From UHGV virus genome UHGV-0379469: a stretch of 35,405 bases of DNA; one strand, given 5' to 3'. The position numbers and the translations under genes were made by a program. The notes under the pieces are model-generated. The model saw nothing but the letters and a program-made list of their open reading frames with translations. It was not told the origin of the DNA and made no database searches. This DNA is from a virus. Below are positions 1 to 31,164 of this stretch, piece after piece. The first letter of the stretch is position 1. Each line of letters begins with the position of its first letter.

Positions 1-405
1 ACACCACCAACGGGCTGGCTGAAATGTAACGGTGCAGCATTTTCTTCTGAAATGTATCCCAGACTGGCAAGGGCTTATCCCACCAATAAATTACCGGATT
101 TACGCGGTGAATTTATCCGTGGCTGGGATGATGGGCGCGGGGTGGATGCCGGAAGGGGCATCTTAAGCATGCAGGGGTGGTTAACAGGAAGTCATTATCA
201 TAATATTCGGTCATGGGATGCGTGGGATAACACGGTACTGGTGCCAAATGACAAAGGAGGGGATAGTCTGTTGTCGACAGATAACGCCGTCCGGCAAGGT
301 GCAATTAACGGTAGATTTACCAGTCAATACAGAACGGAATCCTCAGATGGGAATGAAAGCCGCCCACGCAATATTGCCTTCAATTATATTGTGAGAACCG
401 CATAA
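1..405 (+). CDS. H: tail fibre protein H, C-terminal variable (receptor-binding) cassette in the expressed orientation; the 5' part of the same gene is 34215..35405 (wraps the window junction)
   Basis: Reading frame is continuous across the end/start junction (...PVPWSSA|TPPTGWLKCNGAAF...); stop TAA 403-405; C-terminus ...RPRNIAFNYIVRTA matches the end of the silent cassette. Confidence 0.85.
   Translation, partial: TPPTGWLKCNGAAFSSEMYPRLARAYPTNKLPDLRGEFIRGWDDGRGVDAGRGILSMQGWLTGSHYHNIRSWDAWDNTVLVPNDKGGDSLLSTDNAVRQGAINGRFTSQYRTESSDGNESRPRNIAFNYIVRTA
16..137. repeat. inverted repeat, left copy (122-bp perfect core; imperfect homology extends about 35349..35405 and 1..152)
   Basis: Bases 16..137 are the exact reverse complement of 1309..1430 (checked base by base; first mismatches at 15 and 138). 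Confidence 0.9.
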
Positions 406-1016
406 TGAATAACGCGATATTAAATGATGACCTTATTGCCGTACAGGCAGGAAACATCGTCGTTTATAACTATGATGGTGAAACACGGGAATATATTTCC
501 GAATCAACTGAATATCTTGCTGTGGGTGTCGGTATTCCGGCAAATTCCTGTTTAGATGCCCCGGGCGCACATAAAGCGGGCTATGCTATCCGCCGTTCGG
601 AGAATTTAAGTTCATGGGAGTATGCGCCAGACCATCGTGGTGAAACCGTCTATAACACTGACACGGGAAACACCGAAGAAATCACGACGCTGGGTGACTA
701 CCCGAAAAATACAACCACTATCGCCCCGTTAACACCATACGATAAATGGGATGGTGAAAAATGGGTGACAGATACTGAGGCACAACATGGTGCCGCAGTA
801 GAAGCGGCAGAAACCAAGCGCCAGTCACTGGCTGATGCGGCAATGGCTTCCATAAGTCTGATTCAGTTGAAGTTGCAGGCCGGGCGGAAGTTGACGCAGG
901 CAGAAACCACCCGGCTTAACGCCGTGCTGGATTATATAGACGCACTGAACGCAATGGATATAAACATGGCACCAGATATCAACTGGCCGGAAATACCACT
1001 GGCAGCAGTCAGTTGA
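405..1016 (+). CDS. tail fibre assembly chaperone (Tfa; P2 G / Mu U-like)
   Basis: 203-aa ORF; ATG overlaps H stop (TAATG); sits directly 3' of the fibre tip as Tfa genes do. Confidence 0.75.
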   Translation: MNNAILNDDLIAVQAGNIVVYNYDGETREYISESTEYLAVGVGIPANSCLDAPGAHKAGYAIRRSENLSSWEYAPDHRGETVYNTDTGNTEEITTLGDYPKNTTTIAPLTPYDKWDGEKWVTDTEAQHGAAVEAAETKRQSLADAAMASISLIQLKLQAGRKLTQAETTRLNAVLDYIDALNAMDINMAPDINWPEIPLAAVS

Positions 1017-1022
1017 ATATAA

Positions 1023-1502
1023 CTAAGCCGCCCTCACGATATAGTTAAATGCAATATTGCGGGGGCGGGTTTCACTACCACCTGTGTTACCAATACTTCC
1101 TCGTGAATGAAGCGTTGGTGATGGAATCAAACTCCCTCCTGTATTTGTGGCATCAAGCCCCCTGCCTTGTGTATATGTTTTTTTGAAAATCGTGGCCAAC
1201 TCCCATTCATCCTTTGTGTCATATCCATCGTTAGCTACAACAATATGGCGGTGTTTTTCCAACATCCCGGTTTGAATGCTCAATAAAGCGCGTGCTGCAT
1301 CAATTCCTCGCCCATCATCCCAGCCACGGATAAATTCACCGCGTAAATCCGGTAATTTATTGGTGGGATAAGCCCTTGCCAGTCTGGGATACATTTCAGA
1401 AGAAAATGCTGCACCGTTACATTTCAGCCACCCCGTTGGCGGCGTGGCTGAGGGCCATGGAACGGGCACACCAACGGGCAGCGCAGAGCCTTCCCCCAAA
1501 CC
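1023..1502 (-). CDS. silent alternative tail-fibre C-terminal cassette (promoterless; would fuse to H after inversion)
   Basis: Minus-strand ORF whose first ~65 codons repeat the H junction peptide (GLGEGSALPVGVPVPW...RGWDDGRG) then diverge; own stop at 1023-1025; ends ...RPRNIAFNYIVRAA. Confidence 0.7.
   Translation of the reverse strand, partial: GLGEGSALPVGVPVPWPSATPPTGWLKCNGAAFSSEMYPRLARAYPTNKLPDLRGEFIRGWDDGRGIDAARALLSIQTGMLEKHRHIVVANDGYDTKDEWELATIFKKTYTQGRGLDATNTGGSLIPSPTLHSRGSIGNTGGSETRPRNIAFNYIVRAA
1309..1430. repeat. inverted repeat, right copy (perfect core)
   Basis: Exact reverse complement of 16..137. Confidence 0.9.
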
Positions 1503-1516
1503 AACGTTTTCGTTTT
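1491..1516. other. 26-bp hix/gix-like recombination crossover site (right)
   Basis: TTCCCCCAAACCAACGTTTTCGTTTT; its inner 14 bp (TTCCCCCAAACCAA) equal the reverse complement of the inner half of the site at 35335..35360; central AA dinucleotide; lies at the edge of the inverted repeat next to the invertase gene. Confidence 0.7.
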
Positions 1517-1570
1517 TATCCCTACCTATACCAACTATGTATTTTTCACGAAACAAAGAGGATGTTTTTT

Positions 1571-2170
1571 ATGCAAATTGGCTATATTCGTGTGTCAACA
1601 AATGACCAGAACACGGATTTACAACGCAATGCACTGAACTGCGCAGGATGTGAACTGATTTTTGAAGATAAAATCAGCGGAACGAAATCAGCCAGACCGG
1701 GATTGAAAAAACTGCTCAGAACGCTATCAGAAGGAGATACGCTGGTTGTCTGGAAGCTGGACAGACTGGGCAGAAGTATGAAACACCTGATCACGCTTAT
1801 TGAGGAATTGCGAGAAAAAGGTGTTAATTTCCGTAGTCTGACGGACAGCATTGACACATCAACACCCATGGGGCGTTTCTTTTTTCACGTCATGGGGGCT
1901 TTAGCCGAAATGGAACGTGAATTAATTGTAGAGCGTACACTGGCCGGGCTGGCAGCAGCACGCGAACAAGGACGCATTGGCGGACGTCGCCCGAAGTTGA
2001 CAAAAGAACAACACGAGCAAATAGCGAGGCTGATTAAAAACGGTCATGACAGGAAACAACTGGCGATCATTTACGACATCGGCATATCGACGATTTATCG
2101 TTATCACCCTGTAGGCGATATACAGGCTGAAGAAACAACCAGGCAGACTCAGGAAAATGAAAACCGCTAA
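1571..2170 (+). CDS. site-specific DNA invertase, serine recombinase of the Hin/Gin/Cin/Pin family
   Basis: MQIGYIRVSTNDQNTDLQRNAL... N-terminus with catalytic-serine motif, C-terminal HTH; ~199 aa; adjacent to the invertible segment. The ORF-track start at 1376 is an in-frame upstream extension. Confidence 0.9.
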   Translation: MQIGYIRVSTNDQNTDLQRNALNCAGCELIFEDKISGTKSARPGLKKLLRTLSEGDTLVVWKLDRLGRSMKHLITLIEELREKGVNFRSLTDSIDTSTPMGRFFFHVMGALAEMERELIVERTLAGLAAAREQGRIGGRRPKLTKEQHEQIARLIKNGHDRKQLAIIYDIGISTIYRYHPVGDIQAEETTRQTQENENR

Positions 2171-2189
2171 TCTGACCATTAGCGGTTTT
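2161..2189. terminator. bidirectional intrinsic terminator between convergent invertase and U
   Basis: Perfect 10-bp stem AAACCGCTAA/TTAGCGGTTT with 8-nt loop, U-rich on both strands after the stem. Confidence 0.5.
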
Positions 2190-2196
2190 GCGTTAA

Positions 2197-2691
2197 TCAA
2201 AACAGCCCTTTAACGGAGCTGGCCGCGCTGTTAAGGGATGATGTGACCTTATCTTTGAAGCCGGACAGCATATCACTGAACGATGAGGATTGCAGACGCT
2301 CCCGCAAATCCTCATCACAGCGTTCAAGGGTCAGTGAAAATTCTATCTTTTTCGCCTTACCGTAGCGATCAAACTCGGAACGGGTCGTATTCGTTTCAGT
2401 CAGTACATACATGCCGTAAATCTGCCCGACACCATCAATCAGAGGCCAGGGGCGTCCTGTATATGCCTGCGTGGTCAGCAACGAAAGCGACACTTCGCCA
2501 CCTGTAATTTCAGGATAAAGCACGCCGGAAAGCACGATGCGATCATCACCTGCGCCGATATACTGCCAGCTTGCTGAACGGTTAACGCGTTCATTTTTCA
2601 CATGCCGCCAGCTTTTGTTTTGCTGTAACTGCTGATGCGGCAATGTGCGCAGCTCAAAAACAAACATGCCGTAGATCATCATCATGGCCAT
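2197..2691 (-). CDS. U: tail protein U
   Basis: 164-aa ORF immediately 3' of the tape measure gene on the same strand; size and position as P2 gpU. Confidence 0.7.
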   Translation of the reverse strand: MAMMMIYGMFVFELRTLPHQQLQQNKSWRHVKNERVNRSASWQYIGAGDDRIVLSGVLYPEITGGEVSLSLLTTQAYTGRPWPLIDGVGQIYGMYVLTETNTTRSEFDRYGKAKKIEFSLTLERCDEDLRERLQSSSFSDMLSGFKDKVTSSLNSAASSVKGLF

Positions 2692-2697
2692 GACTCC

Positions 2698-5541
2698 TCA
2701 ATCTTTATCGTAAAAACTGCCACGTCCGGCACGGTCGCGTCGTTCCAATTCTGCCCTGACCATTTCACCGACCAGTTTCGCCAGTTCGCGGGGATTCTGT
2801 GTAACAACGTTATGCAGATGAACATGAATTTCACCGCCAAATCCGGAGGCAACAGGCTCCCGGTTACGGGAAGTTGCAGGAGCTGATGCCACTGGCGATC
2901 GTATGGCCTCCGCCACCGGGCGGGAGCTGGCCGCAACAACAGGGACCAGCGCCGGAGGCAGCGGAGCCGGAACCACGGGTGTGATATTAATTGCGGGGGC
3001 AGGCTTACTGACCTGCGCAATCTTCCGCTCCTGCCACTCCCCACGAACAGCAAGTGCGCGGGGCAGGTTCTTAAAGACAATATCGCCGGGGCCAATGCGT
3101 TTTTTCGTCTCATCAACCAGCTTACCTGTGTTATCAGCAATTTTGCTGAGTCTGCGTAGCGTACCGGTATTGCTGTCTGTGAGCGGTTTGTTGTCTTTGG
3201 GCTTATCACCTCCGGTACCATTGCCATTTTCCACAGGCTTCGGCGGATTGATTTTCGCCAGGTCCCCCTGAAGCAAGGCAACCTTGTCCTGAAGAATGGC
3301 CGCACGCTGTGCGTCTTCGATTTTCTTGCGCGCCCTTTCCGCTTCATCCGGAAGCACACCGAGCTTTTCAAGTATCCACGCCAGCGTATCCAGCAACATT
3401 TTTGCAGGTGTCAGAACAAGCTGTAACGCACCGCCAAGAACGTTACCGAATATCTCGCCAGCACTGGTACATTTATCCAGCGTTTCCTTGCTGGACTCCA
3501 TCGGTGACAGCAGCGATTTAAACCAGTTAAACACCTGGCTGATCCCGCTTCCGATTGCGTCAAAAACAGGACCAAACCGTTCAAAGGTTTCGCGCAACGG
3601 GGTCAGCCTTTCCATAATCCCGCTGAACACCCCGGCAAAAAATGCCCTGATGGGATCCCAGTATTTCCAGATGAGAACGGCAGCTCCGGCGAGCGCAGCC
3701 ACAATAAGACCAACCGGACTGAACAACGCCCCGATAGCGCCCCCCAGTAAAGAAACGGAACCCGTCACCATTCCCCACAGCGCAGGCAACACCCTGACGA
3801 CATTCATTGACCGGGTAAGAATGTCAAAACCAAGACGCAGGGTGGCCAGCTTCCCGTAAAGCACCCCAATAACCAGCGACAACGAGCCAATCGTTGCAGT
3901 CATTGCCAGCAACGCACCGCCTGCTATCAGCAGCTGGCGCGTCAGTACCGGATGGGCCTGCGCCAGCGCCGTCACCCTTGATACCACCCGCGTGAGCCAC
4001 TGCGTGACAGAACGCAGCGGACCGTCAATCAGATCTGCAATGCGGATGCGCAACCCTTCCCATGCACTGCCGAGTGATTTCAGATCGCCGTCAAGGTTGT
4101 TGGCCATAACCTTTGCTGTGCGTTCAGCCTCACCGCGCGCGCCTTCAAGTTCTTTTCTCAGTTTGGGTAAGGAACCGTCACCCGCTGCATCAACGAGCGC
4201 CATAAACGATGTGAAAGCCTCTTCTCCGGCAATGTCCTTAAAGAACGATACCCGGTCAACTTCCCCGTATTTGCGGGTGGCTTTATAAAGGTCGGCCAGC
4301 ACATCCTCCATCGGGCGCATTTTGCCCCCGGCATCCGAGACAGACACGCCCAGCTCTTTCAGCGCCTCTGCTGCCGCCTTTGGCGGTGATGCCAGACGAG
4401 CCAGGCTGGCACGCATTGCCGTCCCGGCATCACTTCCCCTGATACCCATATTCGCCAGCACGCCCGCCATCGCTGCGGCCTGCTCCAGCGATATTCCCAG
4501 CTTGCCCGCCACCGGACCTGCATATTTCATGGTTTCGCCCAGTGCGCGAAGGTCAGTGTTGGTACGGGTAAACGCTGCGGTGAGTGTGTCACCGACCCGA
4601 TCCATCTGGTCAGCAGAAAGGCCGAACTGCGTCAGGATATTTGAGCCAATATCTGCCGTCTCGCCGAGATCCATACCGCCAGCCGTTGCCATGCTCAGCA
4701 CGCCGGGAAGCGCAGCCTGAATGGCCTGCGGTGTGAAGCCAGCCATTGCAAGAAATGCCTGTCCACTGGCGGCATCGCCTGCGGTGAACTGCGTTTCAGA
4801 GCCAAGTTTTAACGCCTGCTCACGCAGCGCCTTAAACTGCGGGCTGTTCTGGTCGATTCGCGTCAGTGCCTGAACGCGGGACATCTCTTTGCCGAACCCG
4901 ATCGCAGGCTGCAAAAAACGCCCGGCAGCATAGCCGCCCGCCGCTGCCGCACCAATTGCCAGCGCACCACCTGTTTTCAGTTTTCCCGCTGTTTCCTGCG
5001 CGCGCGAATACCGCTCACGCGCCCGCGTTACACGCGCAAGCGCCTGCCGTTCGCGTTCAAGCTGGTTGTTGTACTGTTCGGTGCGTCTGATGGCCTGCTG
5101 GATGGTGTTATCGCTGCCTGTCAGGGAAATGCCGTGGCGTTTCAGCTCTCCGCCAAGTTCCCGCATTTTCTGAATTTCCCGTGTGCGCGATTCATTCAGG
5201 CGTTCAAGCCGGGTGCTTAACTGCTGCATCAGCTTTTGTTGTTTTTCGCTGAGCACTGTACCCGTGCGTTGTAACTGATTAAGGGCGTTAAGCTGGCGTC
5301 GTGCTTTCAATATGCCAGCATCCGCTTTACTGACAGCGTCACGGGCGCGCTCAAATGAACGCGCCTGACGCTCGAGATTTTTGATCGCCCCCTGCGTTCG
5401 CTGGATGGAGTCACCAAACTGCCCCATCAGGCGGCGGGCGTTTTCGGCAGGCCGGGTCAGCCTGTCAACGGCGCTGAAAGCGACCCGGATGTCAAGAGTC
5501 TTCATTGTCTGCATTCCCGCTGCGAAGTGCCGCCCGCTCAC
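2698..5541 (-). CDS. T: tail tape measure protein T
   Basis: 947-aa ORF, Ala/Gly-rich and coiled-coil N-terminal half with hydrophobic central segments; follows the E/E' chaperone pair; exact start uncertain (alternative Met 27-36 nt downstream). Confidence 0.85.
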   Translation of the reverse strand: MSGRHFAAGMQTMKTLDIRVAFSAVDRLTRPAENARRLMGQFGDSIQRTQGAIKNLERQARSFERARDAVSKADAGILKARRQLNALNQLQRTGTVLSEKQQKLMQQLSTRLERLNESRTREIQKMRELGGELKRHGISLTGSDNTIQQAIRRTEQYNNQLERERQALARVTRARERYSRAQETAGKLKTGGALAIGAAAAGGYAAGRFLQPAIGFGKEMSRVQALTRIDQNSPQFKALREQALKLGSETQFTAGDAASGQAFLAMAGFTPQAIQAALPGVLSMATAGGMDLGETADIGSNILTQFGLSADQMDRVGDTLTAAFTRTNTDLRALGETMKYAGPVAGKLGISLEQAAAMAGVLANMGIRGSDAGTAMRASLARLASPPKAAAEALKELGVSVSDAGGKMRPMEDVLADLYKATRKYGEVDRVSFFKDIAGEEAFTSFMALVDAAGDGSLPKLRKELEGARGEAERTAKVMANNLDGDLKSLGSAWEGLRIRIADLIDGPLRSVTQWLTRVVSRVTALAQAHPVLTRQLLIAGGALLAMTATIGSLSLVIGVLYGKLATLRLGFDILTRSMNVVRVLPALWGMVTGSVSLLGGAIGALFSPVGLIVAALAGAAVLIWKYWDPIRAFFAGVFSGIMERLTPLRETFERFGPVFDAIGSGISQVFNWFKSLLSPMESSKETLDKCTSAGEIFGNVLGGALQLVLTPAKMLLDTLAWILEKLGVLPDEAERARKKIEDAQRAAILQDKVALLQGDLAKINPPKPVENGNGTGGDKPKDNKPLTDSNTGTLRRLSKIADNTGKLVDETKKRIGPGDIVFKNLPRALAVRGEWQERKIAQVSKPAPAINITPVVPAPLPPALVPVVAASSRPVAEAIRSPVASAPATSRNREPVASGFGGEIHVHLHNVVTQNPRELAKLVGEMVRAELERRDRAGRGSFYDKD

Positions 5542-6030
5542 GCCAGCTAACCACTTCGCCGGGCGTCATCATGAAGATTTCGGCGGGCGACCAGTTAAAA
5601 ATGGCGGCAATATCCGCCACCAGATCTTCGATGTGCTCAAAGCACACCAGGGTGATTACGCTGCCGTCTCCTGCACGCTCTTCGCGCCAGAGTCTGGCTC
5701 GCTCATAAAATTTACAGCCACAGCGCACAACTGAATAAAATCGCGTGACGACATTTTTTTAATCATCACTTCATCCAGTCGTGGCGAGGTCACGCGAGGC
5801 AACAGCGTGAACATGGTATCCGCTTTCAGATTCAGCACATCAGACAGCGACAGACCACGCAGGGATCCAGCCTGCTCAATAGCCCCGGTGATCTCCACAT
5901 ACGTGATTTTTTCGCCACCACGCTCAATTGGTCGGGTCAGTTTTACGCCACGTTCGACAGCCATATCCTCACCTGCCGTCACATCATCCGCCACGGTGTT
6001 ATTCCGGGTTTCAGTATCGATGTCTTTCAT
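5492..6030 (-). CDS. tail assembly chaperone E+E' fusion made by programmed -1 ribosomal frameshift
   Basis: The -1 frame is closed by TAA immediately 5' of the A-run and open from it to the stop at 5492-5494, giving ...IKK|NVVTRFYSV... overlapping the start of T. Confidence 0.65.
5656..6030 (-). CDS. E: tail assembly chaperone E
   Basis: 124-aa ORF between tail tube and tape measure genes; contains the A7 slip site near its 3' end. Confidence 0.8.
   Translation of the reverse strand: MKDIDTETRNNTVADDVTAGEDMAVERGVKLTRPIERGGEKITYVEITGAIEQAGSLRGLSLSDVLNLKADTMFTLLPRVTSPRLDEVMIKKMSSRDFIQLCAVAVNFMSEPDSGAKSVQETAA
5754..5760 (-). promoter_or_regulatory. slippery heptanucleotide AAAAAAA for the E/E' -1 frameshift
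   Basis: Seven consecutive A on the coding (minus) strand inside E, at the point where the -1 frame opens. Confidence 0.6.
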
Positions 6031-6085
6031 CAGTTGTCTCCTTTTCAGTCAGAGGCGACGCACTGCGCCGCCTGCATATTACTTA

Positions 6086-6598
6086 TCAGCCAAGCCCAAG
6101 CGCGGAACGGATACGGTCAGGCACAATGTCCTTGCCGTCCTTCCGGTAGATGTGGTTCAACAGGTCGATTTCCCACAGCGGGCGATCGTTAACGCTCAGC
6201 TTGTAGTAGGTGTTTTTGACAGCGTAAGTGTGTGATGTGGCTTCGCCCTGTTTGGCTTCCCCCATATCAATTTCCGTCACACGCCCACGCATCTCGATTT
6301 CATACAGATCGCTTTCTGCATCGGTGTAGTATTCACCCGCAAAACGCAGCAGCGTGCCGTCAATCGTGCCGCCATATTTAAGGAACAGCGCACGAACAGC
6401 TCCCCCCATGACAAAACTCGCATCAAGCGCGGAGTCGTCCAGACCGAGATCAATACTTACCGCCCCCATCATGCCACCACCACGATAGCTGTCGGTTTTG
6501 CGCGTCAGTTTGGGCGGCGTGACGGATGTCACTTTACCCACTTCGTTTTCACCATCCACAAACAACGTAAAAAAGCGAAGATGTTTTGGTACAGCCAT
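6086..6598 (-). CDS. FII: tail tube protein FII
   Basis: 170-aa ORF directly after the sheath gene; stop/start juxtaposed with FI at 6598. Confidence 0.85.
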   Translation of the reverse strand: MAVPKHLRFFTLFVDGENEVGKVTSVTPPKLTRKTDSYRGGGMMGAVSIDLGLDDSALDASFVMGGAVRALFLKYGGTIDGTLLRFAGEYYTDAESDLYEIEMRGRVTEIDMGEAKQGEATSHTYAVKNTYYKLSVNDRPLWEIDLLNHIYRKDGKDIVPDRIRSALGLG

Positions 6599-7782
6599 CA
6601 GGCACCTCCCAGCACCGCAAATGCGGGACCAAAGAATTCATCAGTAAACGTCTGGTAAAGCTCCATGTCTTCCAGTGGCGGAACGGGCGTATATTTGTAG
6701 CGAATACGCACACGCCCCTGACGTAAATCCGTGGTGCCGTTATCCACCACGTCATACCAGCACTCCGCGCCAATCAGTTTCCCGGCAGTAACCAGCGAAT
6801 CCAGTTTTGCCCTGATGGCACTGATAACATCCTTCACGTTCGCAGGCGTCAGTGGACTGTCGATGGTTTCAAACTGCGCTTCCGCAATTGAATCAGCCAG
6901 CACCTGTGCGGTTCGGGTATACACCTCAAAGATGTAGGCGTTCGTTTCCGGTGTGCGGTTGCCCCAGAAGCGGAACCCGTTGCGACGAATAATGGTCGTG
7001 ATTTCTTTGTTGTTGAGGCTGTTGGCATCGCTGTCTTCGGCCTGCAACGACCAGAACACATGCCTCGACATCCCCAGCACATTTTTAACCGGAACGTTGG
7101 ACAGTGATTTGTGCCAGCCCTGCTCATGGTCAATGTACGCACGAAGGCCGCACGCATAGGCAGGCGCGGGGAACGTTTCGTTTTTGCCACTTTTCGGGTT
7201 GTAGGCGATGAAGTCCGGCCATAAGAGCATCACCTCACGTTCGTTGAATTTCTGGCGATAGGTAATCGCCTCAGCCATCGTGTTACAGCCGTGACATGAG
7301 GCATACACAAACGCGCGCAGTTTACCTGCAATCACGCACAGGGATTTTGTTACAGCCTCCGTGTCCAGCTCCGGCGCGGCCAGAATACGCGGACGGTATC
7401 CGATGCTTTCATCCTGCTCTGCAACAAGCAGCGCATACATCCCCGTATAGCTGCCGTCATCCTCAGAACCACCGATAACCAGTTGATCCTGCGTCTTTCC
7501 GTCTTCTTCTTTGTGTTCAGCCACGCGAACGACGATCACCTTTGTGCTCACCTGGTCTGAGATGGCCTTAAGCGCACGATAAAGCGTCCCCGTTGTTCCG
7601 CATTTTCCCAGCACGTCATTGACGCGGGTCAGCAGTGTGGGCTTGTTCAGCGGGAACAGCTTCGCGTCCGCATCATCCGCCGTTGCCACGATACCGATAA
7701 CGCTGGAATCAACATCGTTAATCGCTGTTACCAGGTCGGTATTTTCCGTAACACGGGCACCATGAAAACGAGTTTCACTCAT
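6598..7782 (-). CDS. FI: contractile tail sheath protein FI
   Basis: 394-aa ORF with motifs recalled from P2 sheath protein (…GFRFWGNRT…, …YTPVPPLE…). Confidence 0.9.
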   Translation of the reverse strand: MSETRFHGARVTENTDLVTAINDVDSSVIGIVATADDADAKLFPLNKPTLLTRVNDVLGKCGTTGTLYRALKAISDQVSTKVIVVRVAEHKEEDGKTQDQLVIGGSEDDGSYTGMYALLVAEQDESIGYRPRILAAPELDTEAVTKSLCVIAGKLRAFVYASCHGCNTMAEAITYRQKFNEREVMLLWPDFIAYNPKSGKNETFPAPAYACGLRAYIDHEQGWHKSLSNVPVKNVLGMSRHVFWSLQAEDSDANSLNNKEITTIIRRNGFRFWGNRTPETNAYIFEVYTRTAQVLADSIAEAQFETIDSPLTPANVKDVISAIRAKLDSLVTAGKLIGAECWYDVVDNGTTDLRQGRVRIRYKYTPVPPLEDMELYQTFTDEFFGPAFAVLGGA

Positions 7783-7939
7783 AGCTTCAGCCCCTTGTAT
7801 CCGTTAAATGATTCAGCAACAATCATCACCCACCACGCGCGTAATCTCACCCCTGCGCTATTCTCCCGCCACGGCGACAACAAAAAGCAGTAACCCCCTC
7901 CGCACGCACATGCGACCATGCCGCACAGGGAGGGAACAG

Positions 7940-9049
7940 ATGACCGACACCACCATGCAATTGCTCAGTCAGGGCACAGCCCCCGTGAAAATGCCGGATT
8001 TTGATATTCTCGCGGAGGGTAAAACGCTGTCAGGCGTGGCAGAGCGCCTGATGAGCCTGTCACTGACCGACAACCGGGGATTTGAGGCGGACCAGCTCAC
8101 CATCACGCTGGATGATGCGGATGGTCAGTTGCAGCTACCGCCACGGGGCGCGCGCCTGACGGTTCTCATTGGCTGGAAAGGAGAACCGCTGACAGAAAAA
8201 GGCACTTACATTGTTGATGAAATCGCTCACGAAGGACCGCCGGACAGGCTGACTGTTTCAGCCAGAAGCGCAGATTTTCGGGATGAATTTAACGTTAAAC
8301 GTGAGGTGTCCTGGCATGATGTGACCGTTGAGCGTGTGGTATCCGCCATCGCTCATCGGTATGGTCTGAAACCGCAAATCAGCGAAATGCTGATGGATAT
8401 CGAAATCGACCACGCCGACCAGACCGAAGAAAGCGACATGTCCTTCCTTACGCGCATGGCGGAAATGCTGGGCGCAATCACCACGGTAAAAAGCGGCAAT
8501 CTGTTATTCATCATGCCAGGTGGTGGCGTGAACGCGCAGGGCCAGCCGTTGCCCTCGTTCGCCATTACACGCAGCAGCGGCGATCGCCATCAGTTCCGCA
8601 TTGCTGACCGCGAGGCGTATACGGGGGTACGCGCTTACTGGCTTGATCTTAATTACGGGAAAAAGAAAAAAGTCAGCGTGAAACGCCGCAAACCGCCAAA
8701 ACCCAAAAAGGAGAAAAGCAGCAGCCGTGAAGGTGATTATATGGAAGGCGCGGAAGGCAATGTGTTTGTGTTACGCAAGACTTATCAGAACGAGCAGGCA
8801 GCAAGACGCGCAGCGGCGGCAAAGTGGCAGCAGCTACAACGCGGAGCTGCATCATTCTCCATCACGCTGGCGCGTGGACGTGCGGAACTCTACCCCGAAA
8901 TGCATGGCACGGTGACAGGCTTCAAAAGTGACATCGACAATCAGGACTGGATTATTGCAAAAGCCGAGCACACCATTGATAACAGCGGCTTTACCACGCA
9001 GCTTGAGCTTGAAGCAAAAATCCCGGAATGGATAGCAGAAACAGAGTGA
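7940..9049 (+). CDS. D: tail protein D (late control gene D family)
   Basis: ATG at 7940 preceded by AGGGAGGGAA; protein contains ...YTGVRAYWLD..., a Lys/Arg-rich linker and ...FSITLARGR...; ORF-track start 7808 rejected (upstream 44 codons are S/P/T/R-rich and lack an RBS). Confidence 0.8.
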   Translation: MTDTTMQLLSQGTAPVKMPDFDILAEGKTLSGVAERLMSLSLTDNRGFEADQLTITLDDADGQLQLPPRGARLTVLIGWKGEPLTEKGTYIVDEIAHEGPPDRLTVSARSADFRDEFNVKREVSWHDVTVERVVSAIAHRYGLKPQISEMLMDIEIDHADQTEESDMSFLTRMAEMLGAITTVKSGNLLFIMPGGGVNAQGQPLPSFAITRSSGDRHQFRIADREAYTGVRAYWLDLNYGKKKKVSVKRRKPPKPKKEKSSSREGDYMEGAEGNVFVLRKTYQNEQAARRAAAAKWQQLQRGAASFSITLARGRAELYPEMHGTVTGFKSDIDNQDWIIAKAEHTIDNSGFTTQLELEAKIPEWIAETE

Positions 9050-9118
9050 GCAACTTAGATATATTAGCTCAGACTTAAGCTGGCAAGTTTACAGTATAGA
9101 ATTAAACATAAACGACGG

Positions 9119-9140
9119 TCCGCTCCGTGCCAGAAGCGGA
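9119..9140. terminator. weak hairpin between convergent D and cargo gene
   Basis: GTCCGCT..AGCGGAC stem followed by TTTG. Confidence 0.25.
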
Positions 9141-9169
9141 CTTTGTCATCCCCATGTAAGGTTGATTGC

Positions 9170-10192
9170 TTAATACGCATTTAATTTAAATTTGTATTTG
9201 CTTTCTATGTAATGGATAAATTCAATTATGCTTTTTTCTATCGCGTCTAATATATGAATATATCCATCCCGATTTAAGGTCCTATCCAACTCAAAATGAT
9301 GAACTATCCCATGTCTATATTGTATGATTTCAGAAATTCGATTCTCAAGGTAATCAACTGATTTTCCAATTCTTTTTTTCTTATAAAGAATCGCTCTCAC
9401 ATCTATATCTAGCCACTCTTTATATGCTTTGTTTAGGAGGGTTAAGTTTTGAAAAGTGTAATTTCTTGCAATAACACTTTCTATTGAAATATTTCCTTTC
9501 TCTATCTCAAGCAGAATATCAAAATCAACTTTTTGCTTATACGATGTTCTTTTTGCTATTGCGAAAGGATCGTACTTTATAAGTATTTGAAAAGCTCTAG
9601 AGAAAAAATATTCAAACATAGCAACCGCAAAAGGTACTAATCCATTATATATAACTCTACTGGGATCCATACATTGCATATCATCAAAGTATTCGGATAA
9701 GCCGCCATCTTCCGGCAGGTTTAATTTAATAGAAGGTTCAGGTAAGGCATGTTTAACAGCGGAAATCTCATGATGAACATGATTAAATATTGAAGAAATG
9801 CCACGACTGATCGGACTACTAGAATCCCCCCATAGAGGAGCGTATCTATTTTTCCCATAATCACCTATAAGTGTTCCACCAAAAAGACTCCTTGCGCCTT
9901 TTAGAACATCATTAAGCATTTTTACATCATGCCAACTAGCGCTAGATAAATTACGCACATGCAATGCCCATTTATTACCAGATATGTGTAGTTCGTCATT
10001 TGAAACAGGATATATATCAGCCGAAACTCCATCTGTAGATTTGAAGTCCGTATCATCAAACCAAGAGTAATTTAACGTTCCTTGGGGCCATTCCCACAAA
10101 TGTTTACACCTTTTAAAACCTAAATTTTCAAGATAATTTTTAAGTTCGTTTCTAGTTGCTTTTTTAGGGTACAGCGTTATATCTCTTCCCAT
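9170..10192 (-). CDS. hypothetical protein, AT-rich cargo gene; candidate anti-phage defence or abortive-infection protein
   Basis: 340-aa ORF with AGGTG RBS; much more AT-rich than the flanking phage genes; convergent with D and divergent from ogr; C-terminal RHGIVHH fits the Rx4-6H HEPN motif; no family recognised. Confidence 0.6.
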   Translation of the reverse strand: MGRDITLYPKKATRNELKNYLENLGFKRCKHLWEWPQGTLNYSWFDDTDFKSTDGVSADIYPVSNDELHISGNKWALHVRNLSSASWHDVKMLNDVLKGARSLFGGTLIGDYGKNRYAPLWGDSSSPISRGISSIFNHVHHEISAVKHALPEPSIKLNLPEDGGLSEYFDDMQCMDPSRVIYNGLVPFAVAMFEYFFSRAFQILIKYDPFAIAKRTSYKQKVDFDILLEIEKGNISIESVIARNYTFQNLTLLNKAYKEWLDIDVRAILYKKKRIGKSVDYLENRISEIIQYRHGIVHHFELDRTLNRDGYIHILDAIEKSIIEFIHYIESKYKFKLNAY

Positions 10193-10383
10193 GCTTTATT
10201 CACCTGACATACAATATTTTACATTTTAACTATCATGAACGTATGAATTTTTACATTGGATGTATGGAAGTTCAACAGCTATTGAAAGTTCAATTTTCAC
10301 TCTTCGCACAGAGCGAGCTGTTAGTTGGAATTAGGGATCGTACAATCTAGAATAGCGGCAGCACCACGTTAAGGGAGGTCGCT

Positions 10384-10644
10384 ATGTTCCGTTGTCCGCT
10401 TTGTGGCGCATCTGCCCGTATCCGCACAAGTCGTCCGGAAAATGATTCAAACACCGTGCGGCAAAAGTATTACCAGTGTAACAATCTGGAATGCGGCGTA
10501 TGCTTCTCAACACTGGAAGCTTTCCATAAATTCACATCGAAACAAGCCTCCGGCGTTCACTCTTCAGAAGGTATCCCGTGGCATGAGCTGCCAGCTTCAC
10601 ACAGGGGAAACAATCAGATGAGTTTGCCTTTACCTCAGAATTAA
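10384..10644 (+). CDS. ogr: Ogr/Delta-type zinc-finger late-gene transcription activator
   Basis: MFRCPLCGASARIRTSR...YYQCNNLECGVCFST: four-Cys zinc finger in the Ogr arrangement; located after D as in P2. Confidence 0.85.
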   Translation: MFRCPLCGASARIRTSRPENDSNTVRQKYYQCNNLECGVCFSTLEAFHKFTSKQASGVHSSEGIPWHELPASHRGNNQMSLPLPQN

Positions 10645-10834
10645 CAGGCAGAATTGCCGGAGTAACAAAAAAGCGATAGATTACGCGCGGGTGCCTTTCG
10701 GCTGATGGTCGGAGGGAATACCCGAAGGCCAGATGTGGAAAGGCCCCGGAAAACACTTTTGTTTAACCGAGGCCCTAACCGTCTACCCTAAGCAAGTGAA
10801 AGGTTAGCGCCTCTCCGGAAAAGGAGCAAGTGCT

Positions 10835-10975
10835 ATGTCGCAAAAATCGCTTACGGCCATCACGTTCTGCGTGACGGTAATCCTCATCATCTGGATGTTA
10901 CACGGTTCGCTGTGCGAAATACGGATGAGCTTCTGGGGAGCGGAGTTTGCGGCGTTCTTACAGTGTAAGCAGTAA
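10835..10975 (+). CDS. hok: Hok/Gef-family type I toxin (small membrane peptide)
   Basis: 46-aa ORF MSQKSLTAITFCVTVILIIWMLHGSLCEIRMSFWGAEFAAFLQCKQ: N-terminal TM helix plus SLCE(I/L)R...E(V/L)AAF signature of Hok peptides; not in the ORF track because it is short; flanked by strong hairpins. Confidence 0.7.
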   Translation: MSQKSLTAITFCVTVILIIWMLHGSLCEIRMSFWGAEFAAFLQCKQ

Positions 10976-10985
10976 GGAAACCGCG

Positions 10986-11005
10986 ACGGGGGAGCAATCC
11001 CCCGT
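10986..11005 (+). other. 8-bp stem / GCAA-loop hairpin in the hok 3' region
   Basis: ACGGGGGA GCAA TCCCCCGT. Confidence 0.4.
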
Positions 11006-11110
11006 CAATCGGTTGCCAGGGTAAGGCCGAAGTGGCACCCAAATTTAAATTGAGGCCCACCAGTAAGAGTGGTGGGCTTAACACTTGTTTAAATTTGAAA
11101 GGAACTCTTT

Positions 11111-11407
11111 ATGAGTGAAATGGTATTTTGTCGCGGATGCGGCAAGGAAATACATAAAGATGCCACATCCTGCCCCAATTGTGGAGCACCTCAAAGAACA
11201 GCAAGTTCAAAAAGCAGAATGACAGCCGCACTACTGGCTTTCTTTTTAGGTGGTCTTGGTGCACACAAATTTTATTTAGGTAAAGTGGGGCAAGGATTCC
11301 TTTACCTTATTTTTTGCTGGACATTCATTCCGGCAATCGTGGCATTTATTGAGTTTTTTATCTATCTATGCACCTCTGATGAAGATTTCGCCCGCAAATA
11401 TGGCTGA
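11111..11407 (+). CDS. zinc-ribbon + TM2-domain small membrane protein (cargo)
   Basis: N-terminal CxxC...CPNC zinc ribbon followed by two hydrophobic helices (LLAFFLGGLGAHKFYLG...) typical of TM2-domain proteins. Confidence 0.7.
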   Translation: MSEMVFCRGCGKEIHKDATSCPNCGAPQRTASSKSRMTAALLAFFLGGLGAHKFYLGKVGQGFLYLIFCWTFIPAIVAFIEFFIYLCTSDEDFARKYG

Positions 11408-11542
11408 TGCCTAACGGACGAATCAGAATGACAAACCCGCAGCGTAAAAATTGCGGGTTTTCTTTTTGTCACCCTCACACGTGAGGGCATCATACTTAAG
11501 ACAAAGCCCGCAATATTGCGAGCTTACCCTACATCTCGAAAA

Positions 11543-11563
11543 TGTGGTCACTGCGTGGACACG
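11543..11563 (+). repeat. putative integrase arm-type binding site (dimeric direct repeat)
   Basis: TGTGGTCActgcGTGGACAcg. Confidence 0.5.
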
Positions 11564-11809
11564 CTCTGACATAAATCCTTTTATATCAATTAATTAAATC
11601 ATCATTTTTTTCATCAACAAGGATTTTTAACCCTTTTTCAGTCTCTGACAATCTAAGGCTCCTTTATTAACAAACGCCCATTTGCAAACTGCTGTTTAAT
11701 CTGAAAAAACATTCATAATCATACAGATAACAACATAACCATTTAGACGGGCAATACTGAAAAATTGTTATTCAGTATCGCCCTTTAAGCCGTTTCAGGC
11801 TATATAAAA

Positions 11810-12829
11810 TTAATCCCCCGTGGACACTGCGTGGACACTCACGCCACCTTTCAGCGGATTAAGGGCCACCGCATCCTGCAGGTAATCCGGTGCAAAATGT
11901 GCATATGCCATTGTTTGCTGAATGGTTGCGTGGCCAAGAATCTTCTGAAGCGCAATAATGTTTCCTCCGTTCATCACAAAATGGCTGGCGAACGTATGCC
12001 GCAGCACATGTGCAGCCTGGCCTTTTGGCAAATCGGGCTTAACTCTTTTCAGCGCCAAGCAGAATTCCCGGTACTTCACCTCAAACAAGCCGCCTGTTTC
12101 TCTGGTTTTGATCGCCTCACAAACTGCCTGCGAAATTGGCACTGTTCTCTTTCGGCCATTTTTGGTTTCAAGAAACGTTACACGGTTATGAACTATCTGT
12201 TCACCACGAAGCTTACAGGCTTCACTCCAGCGCGCCCCCGTGCTTAAACACAAAAGCGCAACACGCCAGTAATCGCCCTCCAGTGTATCGAGCAATAACG
12301 CCACTTCCTTCTGGGACAGGAAAGCCATTTCTCGTGGAGATACATAAAGAATAGAAATTCCCCTTACCGGATGTTCTGCATCCCAGAGGCCTATTTTCTT
12401 CAGTACGGTAAACATTCCGGATAACCGATTCATGTATCTGTTAGCAGATGACGGTTTCAATCCATCAGCTATCTTTTGAGAACGCCACGCGATAATTTTT
12501 AGCTTATCAAGATCCACAGCCTGCATATCAGCGCCAAGCTCATTGATTATGTTGCGCAGTTGTTTTCGGTCTTCTTCCGCCTTACGCCTGTGCTGGCCGT
12601 GATACATCCACCACAACTCAAGCAAATCATTTAGCGTTCGACGATCACGGTAGCCCTGTATATATTCCCGCTTTTCAGCGTTCGCCATGATGTAGCGTTC
12701 AGTGGCCACCGCTACCGATTTTTTGTCAAATACCTTACGCACGCGCTTTCCCTTGCGTCCGTTCGGCCTGATGTCCAGCAAATAACGACCATCTTCGAGC
12801 TTCTTAATCGACATTGCGAAGCCCTCCAA
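11810..12829 (-). CDS. int: tyrosine integrase (P2 Int-like)
   Basis: 339-aa ORF; C-terminal catalytic region ...HVLRHTFASHF...LGHATIQQTMAYAHFAPDY with the R..H..R..Y signature. Confidence 0.9.
   Translation of the reverse strand: MEGFAMSIKKLEDGRYLLDIRPNGRKGKRVRKVFDKKSVAVATERYIMANAEKREYIQGYRDRRTLNDLLELWWMYHGQHRRKAEEDRKQLRNIINELGADMQAVDLDKLKIIAWRSQKIADGLKPSSANRYMNRLSGMFTVLKKIGLWDAEHPVRGISILYVSPREMAFLSQKEVALLLDTLEGDYWRVALLCLSTGARWSEACKLRGEQIVHNRVTFLETKNGRKRTVPISQAVCEAIKTRETGGLFEVKYREFCLALKRVKPDLPKGQAAHVLRHTFASHFVMNGGNIIALQKILGHATIQQTMAYAHFAPDYLQDAVALNPLKGGVSVHAVSTGD
11820..11838 (+). repeat. putative integrase arm-type binding site (dimeric direct repeat), overlaps int 3' end
   Basis: GTGGACActgcGTGGACAc; encodes ...VSVHAVST of Int. 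Confidence 0.5.
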
Positions 12830-25519: not shown

Positions 25520-25673
25520 TGCTCCCCCTGAGTAATTACAGGAAGATTACCCGCGCGCGAAACCGTTCTCCTTAACCCCCTGTTCTGACTGTTTTCTTAC
25601 AACAAAAGCCCTTTGTATCAGCCTGTTACGCTTTGCCATCATGACTGAAGAACCAGTCAGAGGGGCAAAAACT

Positions 25674-30710: not shown

Positions 30711-31164
30711 TTCCCTGCGTGAAGCCATGACCCGTTCATGCCGATGGTGTCAGGCTAACCCGGAAAAATTCACCATTTTCGTGGAGAACGGCAACATTGA
30801 AACGACCGGAGAAACGCCCTCGTTTGTTTACCGCTATCAGATGGTGATGTTTGTCATGGATTACGCCGGGGAGCTGGACGACCTCACGCTGCCGCTGCTG
30901 GCGTGGTTATCCGAAAATCAGCCACAGTTGTTGCTCAACCCTGAGCGTAATCAGGACATCAAATTCTCCGCCGTTATCAATGACGATGACAGCGCCGATC
31001 TCCTGTTTACGCTCCCCCTGCGGGAACGCGTTCGCATCACGCGCAGCAGTCAGGGCACACCGCAGGCAGAACACCTGCCGGAGCCAAAACCCCGCCTGCC
31101 ATCTTCCGAAGGCGACTGGTCGCATGTATTCCAGGATGTGACGTGGGGTGAAAGCGATGGATAA
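30697..31164 (+). CDS. R: tail completion protein R
   Basis: MLKTDSLREAMT...; ...LPLLAWLSENQP... as in P2 gpR. Confidence 0.8.
   Translation: MLKTDSLREAMTRSCRWCQANPEKFTIFVENGNIETTGETPSFVYRYQMVMFVMDYAGELDDLTLPLLAWLSENQPQLLLNPERNQDIKFSAVINDDDSADLLFTLPLRERVRITRSSQGTPQAEHLPEPKPRLPSSEGDWSHVFQDVTWGESDG

What the first reader, a model, noticed from the sequence alone, without database searches (positions are those of the whole stretch)
2197..7939. Tail sheath-tube-chaperone-tape measure-U block is inverted relative to D/ogr and to the canonical P2 order
In P2-type genomes as I recall them, FI-FII-E-E'-T-U-D-ogr are co-directional with H and G. Here FI to U (6598..7782 down to 2197..2691) are on the minus strand, convergent with the invertase and divergent from D. 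That leaves a 157-bp FI/D intergenic region that must carry two divergent late promoters. This is either a real 5.6-kb inversion, possibly an invertase off-target event since the invertase gene abuts one breakpoint, or a misassembly.
Basis: partly seen in the sequence, partly recalled or inferred. Interest (0 to 1): 0.65.

Follow-up and report, generated by a model that had tools for sequence, protein, structure and literature searches.

The report
Lineage-typical inverted tail operon, P88-like phage
The sheath-to-gpU tail gene block really does point the opposite way from P2, but this is the normal, fixed gene order of a large P88-like clade of P2-family phages found in about a quarter of complete E. 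coli genomes, not a new rearrangement or an assembly error.

Summary
FI, FII, E/E', T and U (7782 down to 2197) lie on the minus strand. They converge on the invertase gene and diverge from D (start 7940), leaving a 157-bp FI/D spacer. All other detectable P2 homologues keep P2 order and strand.

The suggested causes are not supported. The same arrangement occurs in phage P88 and in members of three other Peduoviridae genera. It is colinear in 1349 of 5426 complete E. coli genomes and in 116 loci from about 20 enterobacterial genera. Inverted loci form one clade in both D and FI trees rooted on phiCTX. None of 1413 E. coli genomes joins this U to this D in the P2 orientation.

The spacer holds a positionally conserved T(G/C)T-N12-ACA dyad (7862-7879). 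Hexamers resembling -10 elements sit 44-49 nt to each side on opposite strands. This is the geometry annotated for P2's divergent P/O late promoters, so a shared Ogr-dependent bidirectional promoter is my inference, untested. The feature is ordinary and already present in public annotated genomes.

The parts
1571..2170 (+). Hin/Gin-family serine DNA invertase of the tail-fibre invertible segment. It converges on U.
   Evidence: Pfam Resolvase (E 2e-51) plus HTH_7. Annotated 'DNA invertase' in P88 and 500465-2.
2160..2189 (.). Hairpin with a 12-bp stem, flanked by an A-run and a T-run, overlapping the invertase stop codon. Probably a bidirectional intrinsic terminator for the invertase and the leftward F operon.
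   Evidence: Terminator scan. It folds on both strands, with z -4.3 and -3.3 against shuffles. Function is inferred.
2197..2691 (-). gpU tail protein, last gene of the inverted block.
   Evidence: Pfam Phage_P2_GpU, E 5.5e-39. 46% identical to P2 U.
2698..5541 (-). gpT tape measure protein. These are ORF limits; the exact start codon was not determined.
   Evidence: Pfam PhageMin_Tail, E 3.7e-58. 32% identical to P2 T.
5492..6030 (-). gpE (5656-6030) and its -1 frameshift extension E' (ORF 5492-5728). Candidate slippery heptamer A_AAT_TTT at 5713-5707.
   Evidence: Pfam Phage_TAC_7 (weak, below cut-off) on E and Phage_P2_GpE on E'. The fused product aligns with P2 E+E' residues 1-141, E 1.8e-28.
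6086..6598 (-). FII tail tube protein.
   Evidence: Pfam Phage_tube, E 2e-45. 42% identical to P2 FII.
6598..7782 (-). FI tail sheath protein, first gene of the leftward F operon.
   Evidence: Pfam sheath domains. 45% identical to P2 FI.
7783..7939 (.). 157-bp FI/D spacer, the putative bidirectional late-promoter region.
   Evidence: Sequence. Conserved blocks in an alignment of 21 diverse relatives. Extrapolated spacer length is 125-198 bp across the clade.
7862..7879 (.). Dyad TCT-N12-ACA (TCTCCCGCCACGGCGACA), the putative Ogr-binding site. Its centre is 88 nt from the FI ATG.
   Evidence: Position is conserved across the clade: 48 of 124 distinct spacers have an exact TGT-N12-ACA (shuffles: mean 4.3, maximum 12). 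123 of 124 match with at most one mismatch anywhere in the spacer (shuffles: mean 62.7, maximum 76). All exact-dyad centres lie 74-88 nt from the FI ATG. The same TCT-N12-ACAAC occurs at 25584-25603 in the P/O spacer.
7822..7827 (-). Hexamer resembling a -10 element (GATGAT on the minus strand) for the leftward FI promoter, 43.5-48.5 nt from the dyad centre.
   Evidence: The equivalent GAT(T/G)AT, GAATAT or CAATGAT sits at the same offset in 20 diverse relatives. Function is inferred.
7914..7919 (+). Hexamer resembling a -10 element (GACCAT) for the rightward D promoter, 43.5-48.5 nt from the dyad centre. The GGGAGGG ribosome-binding site follows at 7928-7934.
   Evidence: Relatives have AATCAT, AACTAT or GACGAT at the same offset, preceded by a conserved CGCGCGCG box. 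Function is inferred.
7940..9049 (+). gpD, the baseplate hub / late control D protein, divergent from FI.
   Evidence: Pfam Phage_GPD. 48% identical to P2 D. Start supported by the ribosome-binding site and by P88's annotation.
10384..10644 (+). Ogr/Delta-type zinc-finger late activator. It is separated from D by an inserted low-GC gene (9170-10192, minus strand).
   Evidence: Pfam Ogr_Delta, E 5e-14. 42% identical to P2 Ogr. A sigma-70-like match at 10325-10353 lies upstream.
25584..25601 (.). Matching dyad TCT-N12-ACA in the divergent P/O (terminase/scaffold) spacer, used as the internal comparison.
   Evidence: Hexamers TAATCT (P side) and CATCAT (O side) lie at the same 44-50 nt offsets.

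Best explanation
The window is a complete, circularly permuted genome of a P88-like temperate phage (Peduoviridae, at or near Xuanwuvirus).

The minus-strand FI-FII-E/E'-T-U block is the fixed, ancestral gene order of a large enterobacterial clade of P2-family phages. It stems from one ancient in-place inversion of the F operon together with its Ogr-dependent promoter, with D and ogr left behind. It is not a recent flip, it is not invertase-driven in this genome, and it is not an assembly artefact.

Inferred mechanism of expression. The Ogr site is a two-fold symmetric dyad centred about 55 bp upstream of late start sites. The inversion therefore placed that site beside D. A -10 element at the mirror distance now lets a single activator site drive two units: leftward FI-U, which keeps the ancestral PF geometry, and rightward D (plus ogr where the two genes abut). 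P2's own divergent P and O late promoters are annotated with one shared site in the same way. The leftward operon ends at a bidirectional hairpin terminator shared with the invertase gene.
For: Shown:
- Strand and order relative to P2, with gene identities.
- Identical arrangement in P88 (Xuanwuvirus), 500465-2 (Gemsvirus), phiT5282H (Novemvirus) and 3LV2017 (Reginaelenavirus). The papers read describe P88 as chemically inducible and lytic on many E. coli strains, and the close relative PhiSM as spontaneously active (PMC6456863).
- Colinear matches covering at least 80% of window 1577-9049 in 1349 of 5426 complete E. coli genomes.
- 116 of 116 fully scorable loci with D at least 61% identical are inverted. 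24 loci with D at most 54% identical to the window's D, and closer to P2's, are canonical.
- Inverted loci are monophyletic in NJ trees of D (128 of 128) and FI (126 of 126) rooted on canonical phiCTX. 186, SopEPhi and phiCTX are canonical.
- FI and D are about equally diverged from P2 (45% and 48% identity), as expected for an inversion in place.
- None of 1413 E. coli genomes spans a synthetic P2-orientation U|D junction.

Supporting the inferred promoter:
- The dyad is conserved in position inside an otherwise diverged spacer.
- Hexamers resembling -10 elements lie 44-49 nt to each side of the dyad centre in 20 diverse relatives.
- The P2 record annotates one activator site for PP and PO, with start sites 54.5 and 56.5 nt from its centre.
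- The window's own P/O spacer has the same TCT-N12-ACAAC and the same offsets.
- In canonical relatives the PF dyad centre is 79-86 nt from the FI ATG, against 72-88 nt in the inverted clade.
- The terminator hairpin folds on both strands.
Against: - No transcription start sites, Ogr binding or reporter data exist for this spacer, so the promoter model rests on sequence geometry and conservation alone.
- In the window the FI-side half of the dyad is TCT rather than TGT.
- TST-N12-ACAAC is not enriched genome-wide: 4 matches against 2.0 expected, and 17 of 100 shuffles reach 4.
- The compared spacers are phylogenetically related, so the shuffle controls overstate significance.
- In the Salmonella/Xenorhabdus/Photorhabdus subclade, a TTGTCT about 17 bp upstream of the D-side -10 could make a sigma-70-type, activator-independent D promoter.
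- Locus sampling was limited to the best 80 hits per collection and to Enterobacterales.
- The trees are NJ without support values. Polarity rests on a single tree outgroup, with 186, SopEPhi, HP1 and K139 supporting it by gene order only.
Confidence: 0.85

Rival explanations
1. A recent inversion peculiar to this genome, or an actively flipping segment, caused by the neighbouring tail-fibre invertase acting on secondary hix-like sites.
For: The invertase gene ends 26 bp from U. Matches of 17/26 to gix and hix lie at 2193-2218 and 7982-8007, near the two ends of the block.
Against: - The same arrangement is found in 1349 E. coli genomes and across the whole clade.
- None of 1413 genomes has the flipped junction.
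- The hix-like matches occur only in relatives at least 95% identical. Elsewhere in the clade the scores are at background (means 13.9-14.5, background mode 13-14).
- Their central dinucleotides (GC and CC) differ from the TT of the genuine sites at 35335 and 1491.
- The 2193 match coincides with a hairpin followed by a T-run at the end of U.
- 90 of 101 inverted loci have no invertase beside U.
Confidence: 0.02
2. Misassembly: the 5.6-kb block was placed in the wrong orientation by the assembler.
For: The contig is broken inside a repeat, the inverted repeat of the tail-fibre invertible segment. Repeats therefore did affect this assembly.
Against: - Both junctions are reproduced in single alignment pieces in independent complete genomes, for example NZ_CP062763 at 100% coverage and 97.7% identity.
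- They are also reproduced in isolated phage genomes.
- No inverted repeat flanks the block. The longest inverted pair with arms near the two ends is 22 nt at 82% (2404-2425 and 8270-8291), and the others are short.
Confidence: 0.01
3. Module replacement rather than inversion in place: an ancestor of the clade acquired a foreign FI-U cassette that happened to insert in reverse orientation.
For: Phage genomes are mosaic. The tape-measure gene varies widely in identity between loci (26-99%).
Against: - FI, FII and U are about as diverged from P2 as the flanking D, V, J and I are (42-46% against 48-60%).
- The FI and D trees recover the same clade.
- The FI promoter keeps the ancestral distance between dyad and ATG.
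Confidence: 0.08
4. The ancient founding inversion was catalysed by a Hin-family invertase at secondary sites. The trace has since eroded, and most descendants have lost the invertase.
For: Invertase genes occupy the same slot, between the tail-fibre genes and the F block, in both arrangement types: 11 of 101 inverted and 3 of 21 canonical loci. SopEPhi has an invertase fragment just upstream of FI.
Against: No conserved hix-like sites lie at the breakpoints. The sporadic distribution of the invertase fits repeated gain with tail-fibre cassettes. Nothing distinguishes this from illegitimate recombination.
Confidence: 0.08
5. The spacer holds two independent promoters rather than one shared activator site. 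FI uses the Ogr dyad, and D (with ogr) uses a sigma-70-type promoter that does not need Ogr.
For: TTGTCT or TTGTTC lies about 17 bp upstream of the D-side -10 in the Salmonella/Xenorhabdus/Photorhabdus subclade. In P2, ogr has its own -35/-10 promoter.
Against: - The window and its nearer relatives lack that -35-like element: the window has GTAACC there.
- The D-side -10 sits at the same mirror distance from the dyad in all subclades.
- The sigma-70 scan finds no promoter in 7783-7939.
Confidence: 0.2

Closest known systems
Escherichia phage P88 (NC_026014, Xuanwuvirus) and close relatives PhiR44_2, Shae_phiSM, Chuche, P884B11, 520873, 503458 and 500465-2
   Same: 93-96% nucleotide identity over 61-88% of the window. 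The order and strands are identical: invertase, then U-T-E'-E-FII-FI on the opposite strand, then D divergent. The FI/D spacer is 156-157 bp.
   Different: Accessory content differs. The window has a low-GC gene between D and ogr, which 500465-2 shares and P88 lacks. It has only one tail-fibre assembly gene in the invertible segment, where P88 and 500465-2 have two.
Bacteriophage P2 (NC_001895), F operon and late promoter PF
   Same: The same genes are present (FI, FII, E, E+E', T, U, D, ogr) at 32-48% identity, with the frameshift retained. The distance from the Ogr-type dyad to the FI ATG is the same: 82 nt in P2 and 88 nt here.
   Different: In P2 the record annotates FI to D as one rightward operon from PF, with U abutting D. 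Here FI-U is inverted as a unit, and D needs its own promoter.
P2 divergent late promoters PP and PO with a single annotated activator-binding site (3057-3087)
   Same: Two divergent transcription units flank one dyad, with start sites or -10 elements at mirror distances. In P2 the start sites are 56.5 and 54.5 nt from the centre. Here the hexamers resembling -10 elements are 43.5-48.5 nt from the centre on both sides.
   Different: The P2 case is annotated from experiments. The FI/D case is inferred from sequence only.
Hin/Gin/Cin/Pin invertible tail-fibre segments (Mu G segment, P1 C segment)
   Same: The window has a true system of this kind. A serine invertase (1571-2170) lies next to a roughly 1.5-kb segment bounded by hix-like sites at 35335-35360 and 1491-1516, inside inverted repeats that carry alternative H C-termini.
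   Different: The 5.6-kb FI-U block is not part of that system. It has no flanking inverted repeats, no conserved hix sites and no orientation polymorphism.

Membership tests
P2-family phages (Peduoviridae) | The P2 set of structural, lysogeny and replication genes (Q, P, O, N, M, L, X, R, S, V, W, J, I, H, FI, FII, E, T, U, D, ogr, int, C, cox, A). | tested here: met
   tblastn finds 23 of 34 P2 proteins at 26-72% identity. Pfam confirms the tail genes and Ogr.
P2-family phages (Peduoviridae) | Canonical P2 gene order and orientation, with FI to D in one co-directional operon. | tested here: not met
   FI-U is inverted. This does not exclude membership: ICTV-classified Peduoviridae genera share the inverted order.
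P88-like phages (genus Xuanwuvirus or a neighbouring genus) | High nucleotide identity over most of the genome to P88 or P884B11. My recollection of the ICTV genus threshold is about 70% identity over the full length; I did not verify it. | tested here: inconclusive
   P88 gives 94-95% identity over 68% of window 1-12000 and 77% of 12001-35405. Coverage times identity is near the threshold. The closely matching 500465-2 is classified in Gemsvirus, so the genus assignment is not settled.
P88-like phages (genus Xuanwuvirus or a neighbouring genus) | The arrangement invertase, U-to-FI on the opposite strand, then D divergent, with a spacer of about 157 bp. | tested here: met
Ogr/Delta-dependent late promoter | A TGT-N12-ACA dyad centred about 55 bp upstream of the start site, with a -10 element and no good -35. 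| tested here: inconclusive
   The dyad has one mismatch (TCT). Hexamers resembling -10 elements lie at the offsets expected on both sides, and the position is conserved in relatives. No start-site data are available.
Ogr/Delta-dependent late promoter | Binding of, and activation by, an Ogr-family zinc-finger protein. | not testable with these tools
   An Ogr homologue is encoded at 10384-10644. Binding was not assayed.
Hin-family invertible DNA segment (considered for the FI-U block) | Inverted recombination sites of about 26 bp (hix/gix type) at both ends. | tested here: not met
   The best matches are 17/26, confined to close relatives, at background level in the rest of the clade, and with mismatched core dinucleotides.
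Hin-family invertible DNA segment (considered for the FI-U block) | Both orientations present among closely related genomes. | tested here: not met
   None of 1413 E. coli genomes spans the alternative junction.

The most novel reading that the evidence does not exclude
The ancient inversion rewired late transcription in this clade. A single symmetric Ogr site now drives the FI-U operon in one direction and a short D(-ogr) unit in the other. The genome would then have two bidirectional late control regions (P/O and F/D), and ogr would sit directly under a late promoter as a tight positive-feedback loop. I found no description of this in the papers searched. It would show how a palindromic activator site lets an operon be split by inversion without losing regulation.
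Probability: 0.55. Interest if true: 0.3.

Novelty: already known. Interest (0 to 1): 0.15.

Why it matters
The main value is as a correction. A gene order that looks aberrant against the textbook P2 map is the standard layout of one of the commonest E. coli prophage types, present in about 25% of complete genomes. Pipelines and readers that use P2 as the only reference will keep flagging it.

The secondary point is modest but testable. The FI/D spacer appears to be a second bidirectional Ogr-dependent promoter, built by inverting an operon around a symmetric activator site.

The comparison also exposes likely mis-annotations in public records. RefSeq 500465-2 annotates a 413-aa D that covers the promoter region, and P88 annotates a 44-aa ORF inside the spacer.

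Tried and rejected
- An exact TGT-N12-ACA search of the window gave 7 hits, none in a late intergenic region. The relaxed T(G/C)T form was needed. The extended pattern is not enriched genome-wide, so its weight comes from position and conservation, not from count.
- I scanned the breakpoints for hix/gix/window-hix sites. Two 17/26 matches looked suggestive, but a clade-wide comparison showed they are not conserved and lie within the background tail. I dropped them as evidence.
- An inverted-repeat search of 1-9100 found only the tail-fibre repeats and short pairs that look like chance. Nothing flanks the block.
- Literature searches for an explicit description of the inversion in P88-type phages or Peduoviridae found none in the papers read. 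One preprint describes flipping of the P88 tail-fibre segment only.
- The xenorhabdicin paper places the variable tail-fibre region next to the sheath gene, which suggests a canonical-type locus. I did not pursue it.
- A PADLOC scan of the low-GC gene between D and ogr found nothing.
- HP1 and K139 were fetched as outgroups, but their tail gene order is too different to score for this character. All their tail genes are co-directional.
- I did not use the search for homologous proteins, structure prediction or the RNA tools, because the question did not need them.
Full report
**What the window is.** The 35,405-bp window carries a full P2-type gene set. Its two ends join in frame inside the tail-fibre gene H...PVPWSSA|TPPTGWLKCNG.... 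It is therefore a complete, circularly permuted phage genome, cut inside the inverted repeat of its tail-fibre invertible segment. Its closest relatives in the phage collection are PhiR44_2, Citrobacter PhiSM, Chuche, P88, P884B11, 520873, 503458 and 500465-2. These match at 93-96% identity over 61-88% of the sequence. The window is a P88-like member of the Peduoviridae.

**Check of the observation.** tblastn of P2 proteins places Q, P, O, N, M, L, X, R, S, V, W, J, I, H, D, ogr, int, C, cox and A in P2 order and on the P2 strand. FI (7764-6631), FII (6598-6092), E (5964-5689), T (5496-3337) and U (2685-2305) are all on the minus strand.

Pfam confirms sheath, tube, GpE, tape measure, GpU, GPD, Ogr_Delta and a Resolvase+HTH_7 invertase. 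The E+E' -1 frameshift is intact: the heptamer A_AAT_TTT lies at 5713-5707, and the fused product aligns with all of P2 E+E'.

The longest D ORF starts at 7808. The ATG at 7940 follows GGGAGGG and matches the annotated P88 start, so the FI/D spacer is 7783-7939, or 157 bp. The coordinates and description in the finding are correct.

**Is it peculiar to this genome?** No.
- P88 (Xuanwuvirus) and 500465-2 (Gemsvirus) are annotated with the same order and strands. So are Enterobacter phage phiT5282H (Novemvirus) and Klebsiella phage 3LV2017 (Reginaelenavirus). The last two have no invertase next to U.
- Window 1577-9049, which spans both junctions, matches colinearly over at least 80% of its length in 1349 of 5426 complete E. 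coli genomes. Many matches are a single piece at 93-98% identity.
- I fetched 160 loci around D homologues from one-genome-per-species bacterial contigs and from IMG/VR viral contigs, and scored FI, FII, T and U against D by tblastn, together with three phage records fetched earlier, P88, 500465-2 and P2. 116 loci have the inverted order, 24 the canonical order, and the rest are truncated.
- Every inverted locus has D at least 61% identical to the window's. Hosts include Escherichia, Salmonella, Edwardsiella, Serratia, Erwinia, Pantoea, Enterobacter, Kosakonia, Klebsiella, Pectobacterium, Brenneria, Xenorhabdus, Photorhabdus, Providencia, Morganella, Yersinia, Hafnia and Rouxiella. Every canonical locus has D at most 54% identical to the window's and closer to P2's.
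- In NJ trees of D and of FI rooted on Pseudomonas phage phiCTX, the inverted loci form one clade with no canonical member inside: 128 of 128 for D and 126 of 126 for FI.
- P2, 186, SopEPhi and phiCTX are canonical. HP1 and K139 have a different order, but all their tail genes are co-directional. The inverted state is therefore derived and arose once.
- FI and D are similarly diverged from P2 (45% and 48%). This fits an inversion in place better than acquisition of a foreign cassette.

**Is it still flipping, and is the invertase involved?**
- I built the junction that a flip would create, the 3' end of U followed by the start of D. None of 1413 E. coli genomes that carry these genes spans it.
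- The genuine recombination sites of the tail-fibre segment lie at 35335-35360 and 1491-1516, at the edge of the repeat.
- Scanning the block's ends gave 17/26 matches to gix and hix at 2193-2218 and 7982-8007. They occur only in relatives at least 95% identical. In the other 91 clade members the best scores at the equivalent places equal the background.
- The core dinucleotides of these matches (GC, CC) differ from the TT of the real sites. The 2193 match coincides with a hairpin plus T-run at the end of U.
- Only 11 of 101 inverted loci have an invertase gene beside U. 3 of 21 canonical loci have one in the same slot upstream of FI, and SopEPhi has an invertase fragment there.
- The invertase is therefore a sporadic passenger of the tail-fibre cassette in both arrangement types. 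Whether such an enzyme caused the founding event cannot be decided from these data.
- Misassembly is excluded by the many independent assemblies. No inverted repeat flanks the block.

**How the arrangement probably works (inferred).** In P2 the record annotates one promoter, PF, for FI through D, and one activator-binding site (3057-3087) for the divergent promoters PP and PO. Their start sites lie 56.5 and 54.5 nt from the centre of that site. PF and PV start 57.5 and 55.5 nt from theirs.

An alignment of the FI/D spacer from 21 diverse clade members is poorly conserved, apart from a few blocks. The central block is a T(G/C)T-N12-ACA(AC) dyad, at 7862-7879 in the window (TCTCCCGCCACGGCGACA).
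- Among 124 distinct spacers, 48 have an exact TGT-N12-ACA (shuffles: mean 4.3, maximum 12).
- 123 of 124 match with at most one mismatch (shuffles: mean 62.7, maximum 76).
- All exact-dyad centres lie 74-88 nt from the FI ATG. In the 20 representatives examined individually, the positionally equivalent dyad is centred 72-88 nt from it.

These sequences are related, so the controls overstate significance. The positional constancy inside an otherwise diverged spacer is still the point.

When the two halves are read outward from the dyad centre, hexamers resembling -10 elements appear at positions 44-49 on both sides in all subclades:

| Side | Relatives | Window |
|---|---|---|
| FI | GAT(T/G)AT, GAATAT or CAATGAT | GATGAT, 7827-7822 |
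| D | AATCAT, AACTAT or GACGAT, after a CGCGCGCG box | GACCAT, 7914-7919 |

The window's own P/O spacer has the same TCT-N12-ACAACAAAAGC at 25584-25603, with TAATCT and CATCAT at the same offsets. In canonical relatives the PF dyad centre is 79-86 nt from the FI ATG (82 in P2). This is the same range as on the FI side of the inverted clade.

The simplest reading is this. The inversion carried PF and its symmetric Ogr site along with the operon. The site then came to lie next to D, and a -10 element at the mirror distance gives D its own late promoter, as at P/O. In most clade members D is followed directly by ogr.

Predicted start sites are near 7815 (minus strand) and 7926 (plus strand). The leftward operon ends at a 12-bp-stem hairpin (2160-2189) flanked by A and T runs. 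The hairpin folds on both strands and overlaps the invertase stop codon, so it is probably a bidirectional terminator.

None of this has been tested experimentally. One alternative is that D uses a sigma-70-type promoter that does not need Ogr. A TTGTCT about 17 bp upstream of the D-side -10 in one subclade hints at this.

**Comparison with what is known, and novelty.** The arrangement is present and annotated in public genomes of isolated phages. P88 is reported as inducible and able to lyse a range of E. coli strains, and PhiSM as spontaneously active (PMC6456863). I found no paper that comments on the inversion or on the FI/D promoter, but the searchable library is incomplete. The feature itself is therefore already known. 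The bidirectional-promoter reading is a small, testable addition.

**Verdict.** Interest is low.

Noticed in passing
window 35231-35405 joined to 1-173, versus 1273-1516: The window's ends join in frame inside tail-fibre gene H, so the record is a circular genome. It is cut inside the roughly 240-bp inverted repeat of the invertible tail-fibre segment. The hix-like crossover sites lie at 35335-35360 and 1491-1516. The break point probably reflects assembly ambiguity from a population holding both orientations.
   Followed up: partly
window 1-1556: The invertible segment holds two alternative H C-termini that converge on each other (plus strand ending at 405; minus strand 1023-1556). It has only one tail-fibre assembly gene (405-1016, plus strand), whereas P88 and 500465-2 carry two. 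In the flipped state this chaperone gene would be antisense to the late transcript.
   Followed up: no
window 9170-10192 (minus strand): A low-GC (about 35%) 340-aa gene is inserted between D and ogr on the opposite strand. It has a weak, sub-threshold Pfam hit to HEPN RiboL-PSP and no PADLOC hit. 500465-2 has a 340-aa hypothetical-protein gene at the same position, and P88 has none. It looks like a moron, possibly a defence or abortive-infection gene.
   Followed up: partly
window 7808-7939; L002 10347-11588; L001 9173-9304: Public annotations disagree over the spacer. RefSeq 500465-2 calls D as the 413-aa long ORF, equivalent to a start at 7808, which covers the putative bidirectional promoter. 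P88 annotates a separate 44-aa hypothetical ORF there. The ribosome-binding site before 7940, and the lack of conservation of the extension in relatives, suggest that both are over-calls.
   Followed up: partly
L005 (NZ_JBQPOM010000071.1, 'Vagococcus sp. WN89Y'): A 226-kb contig labelled as a Firmicute (Vagococcus) carries a D gene 98% identical to the window's, with the same inverted arrangement. The most likely explanation is enterobacterial contamination of that assembly.
   Followed up: no
window 2193-2218 and 7982-8007: Two 17/26 matches to the gix and hix consensus lie near the two ends of the inverted block. They score as high as the genuine sites do against the same consensus. They are not conserved beyond relatives at least 95% identical, and I judge them to be chance or constrained by coding and hairpin sequence.
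   Followed up: yes
window 31148-32370: S (31148-31792) and V (31789-32370) overlap, with no intergenic region. P2 has orf30 and the separate PV promoter between them. The O operon may therefore run uninterrupted through the baseplate and fibre genes, which would leave only two bidirectional late control regions in this genome, P/O and F/D.
   Followed up: no
window 7897-7913 and 25553-25560; relatives: A CGCGCGCG-type box just upstream of the -10-like hexamer is conserved on the D side of the spacer across the clade. It also occurs on the P side of the window's P/O spacer (CGCGCGCGGGTAATCT). Its role is unknown.
   Followed up: no
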